IMG/VR virus record: IMGVR_UViG_2703718805_000010
Strand: one strand, 5' to 3'
Source: a virus
Lineage: Duplodnaviria > Heunggongvirae > Uroviricota > Caudoviricetes
Length of the DNA: 12,579 nucleotides
Positions 286 through 4,814 of the stretch are shown here, piece after piece; positions within the stretch are counted from its first letter, which is position 1; every line of letters starts with the position of its first letter. A model generated the notes under the pieces. That model was given only the letters and a program-made list of their open reading frames with translations. It did no database searches and was not told the origin of the DNA. A program made the translations under genes and the position numbers.

Positions 286-1335
286 TTACCCAAGCACGCC
301 AGTTGCAAAGGCGTGATCAAGAAAACGAAAAATTAAATCAACCTGAGAACCATGCTTTTCTTCGAACGCCAGCGGATCCGCATGAAGCTCGTTGTGATGC
401 TCCCGACACAGCGGTAGCGTGAAAATATCGTGGGATTTTGTTCCCATTCCGCCCTGACCATGACCAATCAGATGATGAGGATCGTCCGCTGGCTTACCAC
501 AACACGCACACGGCTGTGTCTTTACCCAGCGTGTGTATTTCTCATTTACCCAGCGGCGACGTTTAGGTCGTTTCATGAAGGATTCCGGAGACTCCGGATC
601 AACGGCAATGCTGACCACCGTCTTTTCCTGTGGTGGGTTCTGTTGCTGGTGGGTGTGAGGCGGTAGCGCAATATTTTTTGTGCGCTGCTTCAGTATGCTG
701 GTGGCGGTCTGTTCTCCCGGTATGATGTCGCTTTCACGGTATACGGAGCGGATTTTTTCCGCCGGTAATCCCAGAGAACGACGCGCTACTGCCTCAGGTA
801 GTGCATCCACCACCTGATTGCAGGCCGCCCACCAGGATAATTCGGCCAGCGATAACTCCCTCTCCTGCGTGCCGCTTATTGCGTGACGGATGACGTCAAT
901 CATCCAGGCAACCAGATTCTGCTGAGCAAGTTGATCGAGTGATTCTGATGTCTGGTCGCGCAGCTGGTTGTCACAGTGCCAGCACAACACCATCGCGCCG
1001 GTACCGTAACGGTGAATGACTGTTTCGCTGTGATGATAATCGCCGTGTGGCCACTGGCAGGATTTAATATGGCGCAACAGCCAGTCAGACAATGCACCAG
1101 CACCACCAGCAGCACGAATCACCCGTGCGTTACTGAAAAACGGCAGCAATGTTTTGTCTTCCACTAGCGGCTGGCGAACGGCAGGAACAACCCCGGACGG
1201 CAGATTACGCATGCTTTTCGGTTCCGGCTCCACCAGTACCCGGGTATTGTGGAATACCGGCATGGATTCACGGCCCGGCTTAACGATCACCAGCCCGAGT
1301 TCCGGTACCAGAACAGGTCGAAGTAATACCCGCAC
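286..1335 (-). CDS. nin-region phage protein, probably DUF968/YdfU-like, with C-terminal Cys/His (HNH-like) metal-binding motif
   Basis: 349-codon ORF. GTG start at 1335 preceded by GGAGG (1340..1344, 4-nt spacer) and overlapping the upstream stop. C-terminus has CACCGKP...HH..GHG...H...C.EHHNELH spacing. Family name is from memory, not a search. Confidence 0.6.
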   Translation of the reverse strand: MRVLLRPVLVPELGLVIVKPGRESMPVFHNTRVLVEPEPKSMRNLPSGVVPAVRQPLVEDKTLLPFFSNARVIRAAGGAGALSDWLLRHIKSCQWPHGDYHHSETVIHRYGTGAMVLCWHCDNQLRDQTSESLDQLAQQNLVAWMIDVIRHAISGTQERELSLAELSWWAACNQVVDALPEAVARRSLGLPAEKIRSVYRESDIIPGEQTATSILKQRTKNIALPPHTHQQQNPPQEKTVVSIAVDPESPESFMKRPKRRRWVNEKYTRWVKTQPCACCGKPADDPHHLIGHGQGGMGTKSHDIFTLPLCREHHNELHADPLAFEEKHGSQVDLIFRFLDHAFATGVLG

Positions 1336-1336
1336 G

Positions 1337-1609
1337 TTACCTCCAGATGCGTTGCTGGAATGTGCGGGACGGACGCGGCGGGCGTTCGGAATAAAGGAGC
1401 CTGACGTAGATTATCCAGTGACGGTAGTCGAGGCTAAGGGCTTTCTTAAACTCATACCCACGTCTGCGGTAGTTATGAATCAGCCATTCGGCCTGTTCTT
1501 CAGTGCAGGGATCGTGCTGATACCAGTCATATTTGAATGTGTGAGAACACCGCCCTTGCCTGCTGGCAGGGGCGATATCAGAATTGTGATGTTTGGTATT
1601 GTGCGCCAT
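1337..1609 (-). CDS. hypothetical small nin-region protein (about 90 aa); start uncertain
   Basis: The track ORF runs to 1690, but that start is TTG and lies inside the terminator T-tract. First ATG is at 1609..1607 (MAHNTKHHNSDIAPASRQGRCSHTFKYDWYQHDPC...), with only a weak SD. Stop abuts the GTG start of the downstream gene. Confidence 0.4.
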   Translation of the reverse strand: MAHNTKHHNSDIAPASRQGRCSHTFKYDWYQHDPCTEEQAEWLIHNYRRRGYEFKKALSLDYRHWIIYVRLLYSERPPRPSRTFQQRIWR

Positions 1610-1678
1610 CGGTTGTCTCTGCTGGCGCAGCAGGTGCCAGTTGTTCAGGCTGGCGTGTGGATTGTAAACCAGAATGCC

Positions 1679-1707
1679 AGGAAAAAACAAAACCCGCGAA
1701 GCGGGTT
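1679..1707 (-). terminator. intrinsic terminator ending the restriction-modification transcript
   Basis: Minus-strand hairpin AACCCGC-ttc-GCGGGTT (1707..1691) followed by TTTGTTTTTTCC (1690..1679), about 70 nt downstream of the endonuclease stop at 1780. The + strand reading lacks a T-tract, so it looks unidirectional. Confidence 0.6.
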
Positions 1708-1779
1708 AGTAAAAATGTACTGAAGTCAATGACGTGCCATCACAGTTAAAATATGACAGACTCTATTTACGTAGAGATG

Positions 1780-2658
1780 TCAGACTGCAAGATCCAAGGG
1801 AAGATCAGAAATATCCTTTAATCTTTTACCATTAACCATCACGGAAAGCATGTCAGCTGCATCGCTGAGCCCCAGTATTTCAACTGCTGATATAAGTTCA
1901 TAAAGCGCAAAATGATACACGCAATCTATATCACCAGTACCAAGAGCAATAGACGCCAGACGACTTGGAGTAGGCTCAGCAGTAACAACCATTACATGAG
2001 GGAGATTTCCCTTACGGTTGCGAATAAGATTTAATGCCTCAGAACGAGCATTCTGGGCCCGGTCGCTTCTTATTGTCCATTTGCAGGAAATACTTGCGTG
2101 TAATATTGGTTTCCCACCATTCGAACTCCTGAGAGCTGACATGCGGGTAACAGAATCATCCACCAGTAATTCAGGACTGTTGATAACTTGATCACATTCA
2201 GGTTCTCTTTCAACAATAATATCTGGTGAAATCGTATAATCACTCCCCAGTGCAGCAGCTAGCTGAGGATTACTTTTTGCAGCACTATCCAATGCTATAA
2301 GATGGGCATATTGTTCATATTTAGCTATCTCTAATCTGTTTCTACCAGAAACCTGATGTACATTCCATTTTCCAGGGCGTAAGTGGCTGAGTTTAAAAAA
2401 GGTTTTTTCTATAAACTCTGCGCAGATACTCTCAAACTGATTACCAGATGTTTGCCCTGCAACACGTTCACCAATCGTTTCAGCCTGCAAGAAGCGAGCA
2501 ATTTCTCTTGCTATAGCTTTACTGTTTTTGTTACTGCTATCTGCGTTACTAACAACTCCGGCAGTATTAATTGTGAGCGTATTCAGTAACAATTGGGCAT
2601 GAAACTCCTTTCTGGCTTCAGCAAAACCAACTATGCTGTCAACCAAATCTCCATTCAT
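1780..2658 (-). CDS. type II restriction endonuclease, NgoMIV/Cfr10I-like (PD...K-X13-E active-site spacing)
   Basis: Start taken as ATG 2658..2656 with AAGGA SD 9 nt upstream, 13 nt after the methyltransferase stop; the track start at 2793 would overlap the methyltransferase by about 120 nt. Protein has SPDIIVE, then Lys 47 residues after the Asp (ISCKW), then Glu 14 residues after the Lys (ARSE). This matches the recalled NgoMIV catalytic residues D140/K187/E201. Gene sits directly downstream of a C5-MTase. Confidence 0.7.
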   Translation of the reverse strand: MNGDLVDSIVGFAEARKEFHAQLLLNTLTINTAGVVSNADSSNKNSKAIAREIARFLQAETIGERVAGQTSGNQFESICAEFIEKTFFKLSHLRPGKWNVHQVSGRNRLEIAKYEQYAHLIALDSAAKSNPQLAAALGSDYTISPDIIVEREPECDQVINSPELLVDDSVTRMSALRSSNGGKPILHASISCKWTIRSDRAQNARSEALNLIRNRKGNLPHVMVVTAEPTPSRLASIALGTGDIDCVYHFALYELISAVEILGLSDAADMLSVMVNGKRLKDISDLPLDLAV

Positions 2659-2671
2659 TTCTGGATTTCCT

Positions 2672-3796
2672 TCAGGCTGCTTGACTATTCTTACTGATGT
2701 TATTCTTATACCGTCCCTGCAAAACTCCATACACATATTGTGCGATTTTTGCCGCAAATAGCGGTGGAACAGCATTCCCGATCTGCTTTGCAATCTCAGT
2801 TTTTGAACCGGTAAAAATGAAATTATCAGGAAAAGACATTAATCTCGCTGCCTCACGATGAGTTATTGGCCGATCCTCTTCCGGATGTAAATATCGCCCT
2901 TTCTCCGGTTTGAAAAACTCAGTACGAATCGTTACTGAAGGTCTGTCCCACCACAGACGTCCAAACAAATCGGTCCCTCCAGATTTCTTTTTTAGCCAGC
3001 ACGCCGGGGTTATATCAGGTCTTTTTTTCTGTAAATCGAAACGGTTACCTCCTGGTGGAACCGCTTTATATCGCTCCAGAGAAACAGGTGTGGGATTACG
3101 CCCAAAATGTAAGTTCAGCGGAGGAAGTTCATTACGAATATCAGTTCCAACAGGAGCAGGTAAGTCACCAATTGCATCACGCGTACAGACCCATTCAGGC
3201 AAAGCGACATCCTTATCAGGGGAACGATGCGTTGGTGCTGGCGGGAACGCCGGAATACTATGCACATCGAAGAGTTCTCGTTTGATACCGATTGCTATCG
3301 TTCGTTTTCTTGTCTGAGGTACTCCATAGTCAGCAGTATTCAACACCATTGGATTAAGCAGAATAAAGCCCATGGATTTCGCTCTAAACGTAATGTCCGC
3401 AAACTCATCGCTTATCAGCAATCCGGGGACATTTTCCATGACGAACATACAAGCCCTTGAACGCTCAATGACATCCATATAAGGCTCCCACAATGCTCTT
3501 CGGTGATCACCATAACGATTCTTATTCAATAAACTGAATCCCTGACACGGGGGGCCACCTATGACCACATCAGCCTCAGGAACAGTATTGCTGGATGCCC
3601 ACTCCTCAATATTTGCCTGAACTCCATGCAAACCAAAATTGGCATTGTAGGTATTTATAGCTGCAGCATTATTATCAATAGCAAGGATACTTTCAAAGTA
3701 GTCAGACATCTCTCCATGAAGAAAACCATAAGATAATCCACCTGCCCCACAAAAGAGGTCTATCACTCTGAATTTATTTAATTCTTTCATCCGCAT
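2672..3796 (-). CDS. DNA (cytosine-5)-methyltransferase
   Basis: 374 aa with canonical C5-MTase motifs in order: motif I DLFCGAGGLSYGF, motif IV GGPPCQGFS, motif VI ENVPGL, motif VIII QTRKR, motif X GNAVPP. ATG at 3796 with GAGG SD 7 nt upstream. Confidence 0.9.
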   Translation of the reverse strand: MRMKELNKFRVIDLFCGAGGLSYGFLHGEMSDYFESILAIDNNAAAINTYNANFGLHGVQANIEEWASSNTVPEADVVIGGPPCQGFSLLNKNRYGDHRRALWEPYMDVIERSRACMFVMENVPGLLISDEFADITFRAKSMGFILLNPMVLNTADYGVPQTRKRTIAIGIKRELFDVHSIPAFPPAPTHRSPDKDVALPEWVCTRDAIGDLPAPVGTDIRNELPPLNLHFGRNPTPVSLERYKAVPPGGNRFDLQKKRPDITPACWLKKKSGGTDLFGRLWWDRPSVTIRTEFFKPEKGRYLHPEEDRPITHREAARLMSFPDNFIFTGSKTEIAKQIGNAVPPLFAAKIAQYVYGVLQGRYKNNISKNSQAA

Positions 3797-3974
3797 CCAT
3801 ATGCCTCAGATTAATGTTGAGCGTCTTACAGGACGCGTAATGTTAACTGGGGCTTTCTCTATCTGCCTTTTGGTGTTCATGCCTGAGGCAGACAGCCTCA
3901 GGCACCCGCAGCAATTCTACTTAACTCACGTCACCTCGCCAATATGAAATCAATCAGAAAGGTGATCCATAAAA

Positions 3975-4661
3975 TCACTCCTTCTCTTCTTTTCCGTAGT
4001 GGAGTTGGCCAATTTTGATAAGAGGGCGTCCCTGAGATTTGCGGTGTAGATTGGTATCGCGCAGAGAATACACACAGCCACAATATTCCTGCTGATAGAA
4101 TTTTTCGCGCTTGCTGATTTCAATCATACGGGACGAGCCGCCCTGCTTGCGCCAGTTATAATCCCAGTACACCATACCCGGATAATGCGCAACAGCTCGC
4201 CGCCCACACTCGTTAACCTGCTGCATATTTTTCCAGCGTGAAATGCCCAGTGAACTGCTGATCACACTGAAACCATTTTCAGCAGCGTACAACGCTGTCC
4301 GCTCAAAACGCATGTCAAAACACATGGTACAACGGATCCCCCTCTCAGGCTCCCATTCCATTCCTTTGGCACGTTCAAACCAGTTGTCGGTGTCGTAATC
4401 AGCATCGATAAACGGCACGCCGTGTTGTTCAGCAAAGCGAATATTTTCATCCTTACGAATTAAATACTCTTTCTGAGGATGAATGTTCGGGTTGTAGAAA
4501 AAGATGGTGTAGTCGATTCCCGAGGCCTGAAGCGCCTCCATCACTTCACCGGAACATGGAGCACAGCAAGAGTGCAGTAGTAGTTTGTTTGCCCCGTTTG
4601 GGAGCTCCAATTTAGGCCGTTTGAAATCAGCAATAGTCATAAATATTTTTATTGGGGTCAT
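3975..4661 (-). CDS. queH: QueH-family (DUF208) epoxyqueuosine reductase homologue
   Basis: 228-aa ORF with [28 protein letters not shown] and YCGCVYS blocks, which I recall as conserved blocks of B12-independent QueH. Start may be 4661 or the in-frame ATG at 4640; neither has a strong SD. Confidence 0.7.
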
Positions 4662-4814
4662 GAAAATAGCACAGAGTGTAGCATCAGAGCAGGGCTATCG
4701 GGAATATATGTCTAAATCTGGTAATATCTGGTTTTGACGCAAAGCGGACAACCACGCTGGCTCTACCCTGCGCCATGAAAATGTCAATTCACATCTGAAC
4801 TAATGCTCTTTAAT

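What the first reader, a model, noticed from the sequence alone, without database searches (positions are those of the whole stretch)
1679..3796. Prophage-borne type II restriction-modification module with an NgoMIV/Cfr10I-like endonuclease
A C5-cytosine methyltransferase (all canonical motifs present) is followed 13 nt later by an ORF with Asp, Lys +47 and Glu +14 spacing, the PD...K-X13-E arrangement of the NgoMIV/Cfr10I/Bse634I family that cuts around a CCGG core. The pair sits in the nin region of a lambdoid prophage and ends in its own intrinsic terminator (1679..1707), so it looks like an autonomous accessory unit. The endonuclease region looks more AT-rich than flanking phage genes by eye (not computed). 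At least one GCCGGC (8138..8143) and some RCCGGY sites (for example near 765 and 1000) occur in the prophage itself, so they would need methylation.
Basis: partly seen in the sequence, partly recalled or inferred. Interest (0 to 1): 0.55.

Follow-up and report, generated by a model that had tools for sequence, protein, structure and literature searches.

The report
Prophage NgoMIV-type restriction-modification gene pair
This is an intact but ordinary restriction-modification gene pair, a cytosine methylase plus an NgoMIV-like DNA cutter predicted to target GCCGGC, carried by a lambda-like prophage of pathogenic E. coli, already named as such in public annotation, and sitting where related prophages carry a small toxin-antitoxin locus.

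Summary
On the minus strand a C5-cytosine methyltransferase gene (3796..2672; Pfam PF00145, 4e-54) is followed 13 nt later by a 292-aa NgoMIV-family endonuclease gene (2658..1780; PF09015, 6e-127). The endonuclease is 66% identical to crystallised NgoMIV. All catalytic residues and all GCCGGC-contact residues are conserved.

The 2.1-kb module is 100% identical to DNA in E. coli O157:H7 strain 9000. It occurs in 60 of 5,426 complete E. coli genomes. RefSeq already calls the genes "NgoMIV family type II restriction endonuclease" and "DNA cytosine methyltransferase". The finding is therefore real but already known in kind.

Three corrections or additions:
1. The unit is not autonomous. About 665 related prophages carry hokD (a hok/sok toxin-antitoxin locus) at this position. 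Here about 2.09 kb of foreign DNA (~1710..3802) replaces the mok/hok reading frames.
   - The hok promoter, the 5' leader and the mok ribosome-binding site (7 nt before the methylase ATG) are kept.
   - The "own" terminator is the hok terminator.
2. The methylase is not the usual partner of NgoMIV-type enzymes. It is about 25% identical to them and has an unrelated target-recognition domain. Its lineage elsewhere pairs with an HNH nuclease.
3. GCCGGC depletion is general in E. coli and is not linked to this module.

Interest is low.

The parts
3914..3942 (-). hok-type sigma-70 promoter (TTGGCG-17-TAGAAT). Inferred to drive the M-R transcript, with +1 predicted at G3907.
   Evidence: Promoter scan. 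An identical promoter sits in front of hokD in the related prophage L002. The Rfam hok-leader model starts at 3907.
3803..3907 (-). Remnant of the hok mRNA 5' leader (tac hairpin, ucb-like box). It ends with the mok Shine-Dalgarno GAGG (3807..3804), 7 nt upstream of the M ATG.
   Evidence: Rfam RF01794 scores 61 bits (gathering score 59), with only model positions 1-88 truly aligned. The window aligns base-for-base to the hokD locus of L002 up to 3803. The organisation of R1 hok is taken from PMC9841398.
1710..3802 (-). Foreign block of about 2.09 kb (M, spacer, R and a 70-nt 3' tail) that replaces the mok/hok reading frames, the sok promoter region and the fbi element of a hok/sok locus.
   Evidence: Alignment A1 of the window against L002. 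GC is 42.8% against 48-54% in the flanks. About 665 genomes carry the flanks with a short insert such as hokD, against 57-60 with this block.
2672..3796 (-). C5-cytosine DNA methyltransferase (374 aa; alternative start at 3790 gives 372 aa, WP_001427299.1).
   Evidence: PF00145 at 4.2e-54 and TIGR00675 at 5e-45. Motifs I, IV, VI, VIII, IX and X are present. PGAP name.
2659..2671 (-). 13-nt M-R spacer containing an AGGA Shine-Dalgarno-like element.
   Evidence: Read directly from the sequence.
1780..2658 (-). NgoMIV-family type II restriction endonuclease (292 aa, WP_001012717.1). Predicted specificity G/CCGGC.
   Evidence: PF09015 at 6e-127 over the full length. PDB 1FIU at 1e-118. D40, Q69, E76, D146, K193, R197-S-D-R200, E207 and R233 correspond to NgoMIV D34, Q63, E70, D140, K187, RSDR191-194, E201 and R227.
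1681..1707 (-). Intrinsic terminator (7-bp GC-rich stem, 3-nt loop, T tract). It is inherited from the hok locus and was not brought in by the R-M cassette.
   Evidence: Terminator scan. The same hairpin and T tract follow hokD in L002. RNA fold.
8138..8143 (.). The only GCCGGC site in the window (inside the YdaT-like gene). It is a predicted substrate that needs methylation.
   Evidence: Site count.

Best explanation
The region is an intact Type II restriction-modification operon in the nin region of a lambdoid prophage of E. coli. It is seen in O157:H7, O111, O103, O39 and some commensals.

**The two enzymes**
- The first gene encodes a C5-cytosine methyltransferase.
- The second encodes an NgoMIV-family PD...K-X13-E endonuclease.
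- By residue conservation the endonuclease should recognise GCCGGC and cut G/CCGGC. It probably acts as a two-site tetramer like NgoMIV; this is inferred.
- The methylase must modify a cytosine inside GCCGGC to protect the lysogen and the phage's own sites (8 in the strain 9000 prophage). This is inferred.

**How it is expressed**
[quoted passage not shown] This is shown by alignment.
- It is therefore most likely transcribed in the lysogen from the retained hok promoter. M would be translated from the former mok ribosome-binding site, and the transcript would stop at the former hok terminator. These steps are inferred.
- The Sok antisense promoter region and the 3' fbi element are gone.

**Likely effect (inferred)**
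- Restriction of incoming unmethylated phage and plasmid DNA.
- Post-segregational stabilisation of the prophage, the role hok/sok would otherwise play.
For: **R identity and residues**
- PF09015 full-length hit of 423 bits.
- 65.8% identity to NgoMIV 1FIU.
- Catalytic E70/D140/K187/E201, the CCGG-reading RSDR motif and the outer G:C contacts D34, Q63 and R227 are all conserved. Their roles are taken from PMC5389614, PMC3413111 and PMC2532715.

**M identity**
- PF00145 match and all motifs present.

**Intactness**
- The same WP protein accessions are annotated without a pseudogene flag in each of the four carrier genomes inspected.
- The 2,118-bp DNA is at least 99% identical in 59 of the 60 carriers.

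**hok replacement**
- Window and L002 are collinear up to 3803 and again from about 1710.
- The Rfam hok-leader model aligns over its 5' half only.
- The hok promoter and terminator are shared.
- The native upstream region shared by the closest M-R relatives L085 and L083 is absent from the window.

**Host compatibility**
- The immigration-control region of strain 9000 has no mcrBC or mrr.

**A phage-borne lineage**
- The closest relative (R 89%, M 85%) is also in a lambdoid nin region, after cI-cro-cII-O-P.
Against: - No expression, methylation or cleavage data exist for this module. No paper on it was found.
- The methylase is not orthologous to the roughly 318-aa methylases that accompany R orthologues in more than 70 other loci. 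It is about 25% identical to them and shares no similarity in the target-recognition domain. Its specificity therefore rests only on the logic that it must protect against its neighbour.
- The predicted leader fold pairs the ribosome-binding site and M start with an upstream box, so translation of M from this leader could be weak.
- Promoter and terminator assignments come from consensus scans and homology, not from mapped RNA ends.
Confidence: 0.82

Rival explanations
1. The pair is an autonomous accessory unit (moron) with its own promoter and its own terminator.
For: - A terminator-like hairpin directly follows R.
- The block has a distinct GC content.
- An internal promoter-like site exists at 3696..3668, but it lies inside the M coding region.
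Against: - The terminator and its flanks are shared with hokD-bearing prophages that lack the R-M genes.
- Foreign DNA begins only about 5-7 nt before the M ATG (3802/3803).
- The roughly 70-nt upstream region conserved between the closest relatives L085 and L083 is missing.
- In the scanned 1300..4200 there were 4 promoter-like sites against 5.5 expected by chance.
Confidence: 0.08
2. The endonuclease is silent or inactive in vivo. The relevant activity would be the methylase alone, either protecting phage DNA against GCCGGC or CCGG-type restriction in new hosts or acting as an epigenetic orphan.
For: - Phage-borne orphan methylases are common; this rests on established knowledge.
- The prophage carries a second DNA methyltransferase downstream of Q.
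- The leader fold may limit expression.
- No functional data exist.
Against: - R is full length with every catalytic and recognition residue intact.
- R carries the same RefSeq protein accession, with no pseudogene flag, in the four carrier genomes inspected, and the module DNA is at least 99% identical in 59 of the 60 carriers across several serotypes.
- The one IS insertion seen nearby hits QueH, not R.
- The M-then-R order with a 13-nt spacer is a typical operon layout.
Confidence: 0.12
3. The enzyme recognises a different or degenerate CCGG-containing site, for example RCCGGY like Cfr10I and Bse634I, rather than GCCGGC.
For: - The partner methylase belongs to a different lineage from the usual NgoMIV-type partner. 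It could have a broader target such as CCGG or RCCGGY.
- CCGG-family enzymes share a common core (PMC3413111).
Against: - R is 66% identical to NgoMIV itself. The only PDB sequence hit at E<=1 is NgoMIV, not Cfr10I, Bse634I or SgrAI.
- D34, Q63 and R227, which specify the outer G:C pair in NgoMIV, are conserved (PMC5389614, PMC3413111).
- Bse634I uses Pro203 and Asn73 instead.
Confidence: 0.07
4. The main selected role is prophage addiction (post-segregational killing), replacing the hok/sok function at this locus, rather than defence against other phages.
For: - The cassette sits exactly where a hok/sok locus lies in about 665 related prophages and reuses its signals.
- hok/sok mediates post-segregational killing, and hok is enriched in prophages (PMC9841398; bioRxiv 10.1101/2025.08.07.668861).
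- Type II R-M systems can act as addiction modules; this rests on established knowledge.
Against: - The two roles are not exclusive.
- Chromosomal hok loci are often reported to be inactive for post-segregational killing.
- The host has few GCCGGC sites, 6 in 121 kb sampled, which weakens but does not remove post-segregational killing.
- There are no data on prophage loss.
Confidence: 0.3

Closest known systems
NgoMIV (Neisseria gonorrhoeae; PDB 1FIU/4ABT), Type IIF, G/CCGGC
   Same: - 65.8% identity over 281 aa, covering the full length of Pfam PF09015.
- The same catalytic residues (E70, D140, K187, E201), the same RSDR CCGG-reading motif and the same outer-base-pair contacts (D34, Q63, R227).
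   Different: - The host is E. coli and the location is a prophage.
- R has 6 extra N-terminal residues.
- The partner methylase is of another lineage: 372-374 aa with a roughly 128-aa unrelated target-recognition domain, against the roughly 318-aa methylases next to R orthologues elsewhere.
- Tetramer formation and the cleavage position were not tested.
Cfr10I / Bse634I / SgrAI (CCGG-family PD...K-X13-E enzymes, RCCGGY or CRCCGGYG)
   Same: The permuted active-site motif PDX46-53KX13E and the R-(D/E)R recognition motif (PMC3413111, PMC5389614).
   Different: - They gave no sequence hit at E<=1 in the PDB search.
- They lack the NgoMIV-type D34/R227 contacts that fix the outer G:C pair.
M-R pairs in Pantoea, Cronobacter and Cedecea, and in a second lambdoid phage contig (L085) and a chromosomal locus (L083)
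   Same: - The same gene pair and order, with a short M-R gap (14 nt).
- R is 84-89% identical and M is 72-85% identical.
- L085 is also in a nin region, after O and P.
   Different: They keep a native upstream region that the window lacks, and they are not embedded in a hok leader.
[quoted passage not shown]
   Same: The promoter, the first roughly 104 nt of the leader including the tac hairpin and the mok Shine-Dalgarno, and the terminator are retained.
   Different: The mok and hok reading frames, the region where the sok promoter lies, and the 3' fbi element are deleted and replaced by M-R. It is a remnant, not a toxin-antitoxin system.
Other phage- or prophage-borne R-M systems, for example the Stx2-phage Type II system of E. 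coli O104:H4 and P1 EcoP1I (recalled from memory, not checked here)
   Same: A temperate phage carries a complete R-M system that is expressed from the lysogen.
   Different: The enzyme families and the positions in the phage genome differ.

Membership tests
NgoMIV family Type II restriction endonuclease (Pfam PF09015) | Full-length match to the family profile above the curated threshold | tested here: met
   423 bits against a cut-off of 23.2, profile positions 1-275 of 275. PADLOC REase_II PDLC03527 at 8e-126.
NgoMIV family Type II restriction endonuclease (Pfam PF09015) | Permuted active site PD...K-X13-E plus the upstream Glu (NgoMIV E70, D140, K187, E201) | tested here: met
   E76, D146, K193 and E207 align to these residues. 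The motif definition comes from PMC3413111 and PMC5389614.
NgoMIV family Type II restriction endonuclease (Pfam PF09015) | R-(D/E)R motif that reads the CCGG core (RSDR 191-194) | tested here: met
   R197-S-D-R200. Role taken from PMC2532715.
NgoMIV family Type II restriction endonuclease (Pfam PF09015) | Contacts that specify the outer G:C pair (D34, R227, Q63), giving GCCGGC | tested here: met
   D40, R233 and Q69 are conserved. Roles taken from PMC5389614 and PMC3413111.
NgoMIV family Type II restriction endonuclease (Pfam PF09015) | Cleavage at G/CCGGC, and a Type IIF tetramer acting on two sites | not testable with these tools
   This needs purified enzyme.
C5-cytosine DNA methyltransferase (PF00145) | Conserved motifs I (FxGxG), IV (PCQ), VI (ENV), VIII (QxRxR), IX and X (GNxVP) | tested here: met
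   All found at residues 15, 83, 121, 161, 314 and 340. PF00145 at 4e-54 and TIGR00675 at 154 bits against a cut-off of 100.65.
M.NgoMIV-type methylase (the usual partner of NgoMIV-family endonucleases) | Orthology to the methylase encoded directly upstream of R orthologues | tested here: not met
   - In 75 other loci the upstream methylase is mostly 300-340 aa.
- It is only 22-30% identical to the window M.
- Similarity is confined to motif blocks 6-182 and 311-362, with none in the target-recognition domain.
- The M.NgoMIV sequence itself was not available for comparison.
Type II R-M operon | Adjacent, co-oriented M and R genes that form one unit | tested here: met
   A 13-nt gap on the same strand. 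The pairing is conserved in L083 and L085. No controller (C) protein ORF is present.
Type II R-M operon | M protects the sites that R cuts (matching specificity) | not testable with these tools
   This is inferred only from co-occurrence and from both genes being intact in the carrier genomes.
[quoted passage not shown] | hok (and mok) reading frames plus the Sok antisense RNA | tested here: not met
   - Only the promoter, about 104 nt of the leader and the terminator remain.
- The Rfam RF01794 score of 61 bits rests on model positions 1-88.
- No hok ORF is present.
Lambdoid prophage nin-region accessory gene (moron) | Location between the replication genes and Q/RusA; presence or absence polymorphism among related prophages; deviant base composition | tested here: met
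   Context. The block is present in 57-60 genomes against about 665 with hokD at the site. GC is 42.8% against 48-54%.

The most novel reading that the evidence does not exclude
The R-M cassette did not simply land in the nin region. It was grafted onto the expression platform of a hok/sok addiction locus: the hok promoter, the structured leader with its tac hairpin and anti-SD box, the mok ribosome-binding site and the hok terminator.

The retained RNA leader could then time or throttle methylase and endonuclease synthesis. That would make it a controller-protein-free solution to the problem of establishing an R-M system in a new host, and it would convert one type of addiction module into another.

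Separately, the same methylase lineage pairs elsewhere with a conserved wHTH-HNH nuclease. That nuclease would then be an uncharacterised restriction enzyme family with the same target, presumably GCCGGC-containing.
Probability: 0.2. Interest if true: 0.45.

Novelty: already known. Interest (0 to 1): 0.18.

Why it matters
**For the scan**
- This is a true positive of a routine kind. The genes are already named correctly in RefSeq for 60 complete E. coli genomes.
- The enzyme family has crystal structures and a well-understood mechanism.

**Practical relevance (modest)**
- Carriers include O157:H7 (among them strain 9000 and the UK 'Z' cattle and human isolates), O111 and O103 STEC.
- These strains should have GCCGGC-methylated DNA, resist NgoMIV and NaeI digestion, and restrict incoming unmodified DNA.
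- This bears on transformation efficiency, on phage and plasmid uptake, and on 5mC signals in long-read data.

**The more instructive points**
- One addiction or defence cassette (R-M) replaced another (hok/sok) almost exactly at its ribosome-binding site and terminator. This is a clear example of cassette exchange at a nin-region hotspot.
- A highly conserved endonuclease has been combined with a non-orthologous methylase whose own lineage otherwise partners with an HNH nuclease.

Tried and rejected
**Public collections and literature**
- The INPHARED phage collection gave no DNA match. By protein it gave one distant match (MT836008, 56%). The module is not in deposited phage genomes, only in prophages.
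- Searches for NgoMIV+O157, NgoMIV+prophage, GCCGGC+methylome, Eco56I and lambdoid+R-M+O157 found nothing on this module. I recalled that E. coli RFL56 makes a GCCGGC enzyme (Eco56I), but could not document it.

**Site depletion as evidence of activity: rejected**
- The GCCGGC observed/expected ratio is 0.12-0.2 in 121 kb of host chromosome and 0.3-0.6 in the 46-kb prophage.
- GGCGCC behaves similarly.
- The depletion is therefore a general E. coli trait.

**Other systems considered**
- A Druantia (DruM) or DISARM reading, prompted by the top PADLOC hit for M (DruM2, 2e-90), was rejected. No other genes of those systems are nearby, and R is a Type II enzyme.
- A controller (C) protein was looked for. 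There is no such ORF between QueH and M.
- An IS3 element seen in one carrier (H62) was checked as a possible inactivation of R. It interrupts QueH instead.

**Loose ends**
The enterobacterial neighbours came from the look-up of encoding contigs instead.
- The consensus scan found no sok promoter in L002. The statement that the sok promoter region is deleted rests on its position in R1 hok/sok (own knowledge plus the coordinates in PMC9841398).
- The source strain was not identified exactly. The 2.1-kb module is 100% identical to strain 9000 and others, but the flanks 1300..4700 are only 98.9-99.0% identical to the best genomes.
Full report
**1. What is in the sequence**

Both genes lie on the minus strand.
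- A 374-codon ORF runs 3796..2672. RefSeq starts it at the ATG at 3790.
- Exactly 13 nt later a 292-codon ORF runs 2658..1780.
- The first protein is a C5-cytosine DNA methyltransferase. It matches Pfam PF00145 at 4.2e-54 and TIGR00675 at 154 bits against a cut-off of 100.65. Motifs I, IV, VI, VIII, IX and X are all present.
- The second protein matches the Pfam family built on NgoMIV (PF09015) end to end, at 423 bits against a cut-off of 23.2.
- In a search of all PDB sequences the second protein hits only NgoMIV (1FIU/4ABT), at E = 1e-118. Identity is 65.8% over 281 aligned residues.

Asp146, Lys193 (+47) and Glu207 (+14) align with the catalytic D140, K187 and E201 of NgoMIV.

The other items are also confirmed.
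- A hairpin plus T tract lies at 1707..1681.
- GC content is lower in the pair (R 41.6%, M 44.2%) than in the flanks (54% and 48%).
- GCCGGC occurs once, at 8138. RCCGGY sites occur at 761 and 997, among ten in total.

**2. Where it comes from and whether it is known**

- The 2,118-bp interval is 100% identical to E. coli O157:H7 strain 9000 and to many UK 'Z' isolates. It is present in 60 of 5,426 complete E. coli genomes, always on the chromosome.
- In strain 9000 it lies in a 46-kb lambdoid prophage integrated at ydfJ. It sits between the replication genes, DUF977 and QueH on one side and DUF968, RusA and Q on the other, which is the nin region.
- RefSeq already names the proteins "NgoMIV family type II restriction endonuclease" (WP_001012717.1) and "DNA cytosine methyltransferase" (WP_001427299.1).
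- 57 genomes cover at least 80% of window 1300..4700, that is the module together with its QueH and DUF968 flanks. The carriers include O157:H7, O111:H8/H11, O103:H2, O39:NM and non-STEC strains.
- In the four carrier genomes I inspected the two genes carry the same protein accessions and no pseudogene flag.
- An IS3 element in one carrier interrupts QueH, not the R-M genes.
- No deposited phage genome carries the DNA. Only one carries a distant homologue of R, at 56%.
- I found no paper describing this module.

**3. Predicted specificity**

Structural papers on the CCGG family assign the following roles.
- The RSDR segment reads CCGG (PMC2532715).
- D34 and R227 contact the outer G:C pair (PMC5389614).
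- Q63 contacts the outer C in the minor groove (PMC3413111).
- NgoMIV is strictly specific for GCCGGC because of this network. Bse634I, which accepts RCCGGY, uses Pro203 and Asn73 instead (PMC3413111).

All of these NgoMIV residues are conserved in the window protein: D40, Q69, E76, D146, K193, R197-S-D-R200, E207 and R233. I therefore predict G/CCGGC. Cleavage itself and the tetrameric two-site mechanism are inferred, not shown.

**4. The unit is embedded in a hok/sok locus**

I searched with the two flanks joined together.
- About 665 genomes carry the flanks with only a short insert between them. In every such arrangement listed, that insert is annotated as hokD.
- I aligned one such prophage (L002, strain MS20654) with the window.
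- Collinearity runs from QueH through the hok promoter (TTGGCG-17-TAGAAT, window 3942..3914) and the hok mRNA leader, down to the mok Shine-Dalgarno GAGG(C) at 3807..3803.
- It resumes at about 1710 with the terminator hairpin and T tract.
- Between those points L002 has mok/hok (about 300 bp), and the window has M-R (about 2.09 kb).

Other evidence agrees.
- Rfam's RF01794 model, which here matches in the sense orientation of the hok mRNA leader, scores 113 bits in L002. In the window it scores 61 bits, with only positions 1-88 truly aligned.
- The M start codon (3796) lies 7 nt after the former mok ribosome-binding site.
- The closest M-R relatives (L085, L083) share a conserved native upstream region that the window lacks.
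- Three carriers diverge upstream of 3927 but still keep the leader. The mosaic unit is therefore hok promoter/leader, M, R, hok terminator.

So the "own terminator" is inherited. Expression in the lysogen most plausibly depends on the hok promoter (inferred).

The following are deleted:
- the region between the mok and hok start codons, where the R1 sok promoter lies (my knowledge; R1 coordinates for mok at 116-118 and hok at 174-176 from PMC9841398);
- the 3' fbi element, visible in L002 as GCACCC...CCTCAA, complementary to the 5' end.

The predicted fold of the retained leader has two features (z = -3.5).
- It keeps the 5' hairpin.
- It pairs the Shine-Dalgarno and M start with the upstream anti-SD-like box.

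This could throttle M translation, but that is speculation.

**5. The methylase is not the usual partner**

- R belongs to a very large and strikingly conserved family: 59-78% identity across Proteobacteria, Acidobacteria, Firmicutes, Planctomycetes and others.
- In 75 of those loci the gene directly upstream of R is a C5 methylase, mostly 300-340 aa.
  - It is only 22-30% identical to the window M.
  - Similarity is limited to the catalytic motif blocks (residues 6-182 and 311-362).
  - There is none across the roughly 128-aa target-recognition region.
- Window-like methylases are widespread in Enterobacterales and marine Gammaproteobacteria. They are 67-75% identical along the whole length, including the recognition domain (alignment A4).
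- In Salmonella Cerro, Edwardsiella tarda and Idiomarina they are followed not by an NgoMIV-type gene but by a conserved nuclease of about 325 aa.
  - It has winged-helix domains and a C-terminal HNH motif.
  - The Salmonella and Idiomarina copies are 63% identical.
- Only the sub-clade with M 72-85% identical has the NgoMIV-type R. This sub-clade comprises Pantoea, Cronobacter, Cedecea, the lambdoid contig L085 and the chromosomal L083.
- Similarity between the two groups of methylases fades only in the last roughly 20 residues. That fits an exchange of the downstream nuclease gene.

The consequence is that the methylase's target is inferred only from the need to protect against its neighbour. 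The HNH enzymes probably share that target.

**6. Host compatibility and site statistics**

- In strain 9000 the immigration-control region has GmrSD/DUF262 genes and a DUF262+HNH pair where K-12 has mcrBC and mrr. The classical 5mC-dependent restriction genes are thus absent at that locus. This is consistent with tolerance of an extra C5 methylase. Only that locus was inspected.
- In the 46-kb prophage GCCGGC occurs 8 times, against 13.8 expected from base composition and 25 from a Markov model.
- In 121 kb of host chromosome it occurs 6 times, against 29 and 51 expected. GGCGCC behaves the same way.
- The depletion is a general E. coli property and says nothing about this module.

**7. Verdict**

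- The claim of autonomy is not supported.
- As a kind of system it is already known and already annotated.
- The hok-locus graft and the non-orthologous methylase, whose lineage has an HNH alternative partner, are small points that I could not find documented in the searched literature.
- Interest is low, about 0.18.

Noticed in passing
L086 4001-6071, L088 4001-6073, L090 4001-6068 (relatives of the window M, 2672..3796): The window's methylase lineage is 67-75% identical to these proteins, including the target-recognition domain. In Salmonella Cerro, Edwardsiella tarda and Idiomarina it is paired with a conserved nuclease of about 325 aa carrying winged-helix and HNH domains. The HNH domain is nearest to E. 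coli McrA, and no family name is assigned. This is probably an uncharacterised restriction enzyme with the same target as the methylase.
   Followed up: partly
window 10699..10750 (+): A full-length DicF antisense sRNA (Rfam RF00039, 75.8 bits) lies next to the dicB/ydfABC-type genes. A weak, sub-threshold STnc100-like match follows at 10748..10957. This is the Qin/Kim-type immunity and cell-division-inhibition region of the prophage.
   Followed up: no
window 3975..4661 (-): The prophage encodes an epoxyqueuosine reductase QueH (PF02677, 1e-65) just upstream of the hok/R-M slot. About 665 E. coli genomes carry it together with the hok leader and the DUF968-side flank. Its role in a phage is unexplained.
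   Followed up: no
L093 1-9540 (strain 9000 chromosome 689187-699539): The immigration-control region of the O157:H7 host has GmrSD/DUF262 genes and a DUF262+HNH pair where K-12 has mcrBC and mrr. They flank an EcoAI-family type I system and symE.
   Followed up: partly
window 286..1335 (-): The DUF968 protein (PF06147, 5e-77) has a weak HNHc_6 nuclease match (9e-5) at its C-terminus. It sits between the R-M pair and RusA, and its function is unknown.
   Followed up: no
window 1300..1678 and 3797..4700: The R-M block is 100% identical to strain 9000, but the flanks are only 98.9-99.0% identical to the best complete genomes. The window's source strain is therefore not in the collection, or the flanks are mosaic.
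   Followed up: partly
L095 3635-4848 (strain OkiPb01684): An IS3-family element is inserted into QueH right next to the intact R-M pair in one carrier.
   Followed up: yes
window 3760..3907 (-): The predicted fold of the retained hok leader (-43.7 kcal/mol, z = -3.5) keeps the 5' tac hairpin. It also pairs the mok Shine-Dalgarno and M start codon with an upstream anti-SD-like box. This may limit methylase translation.
   Followed up: partly
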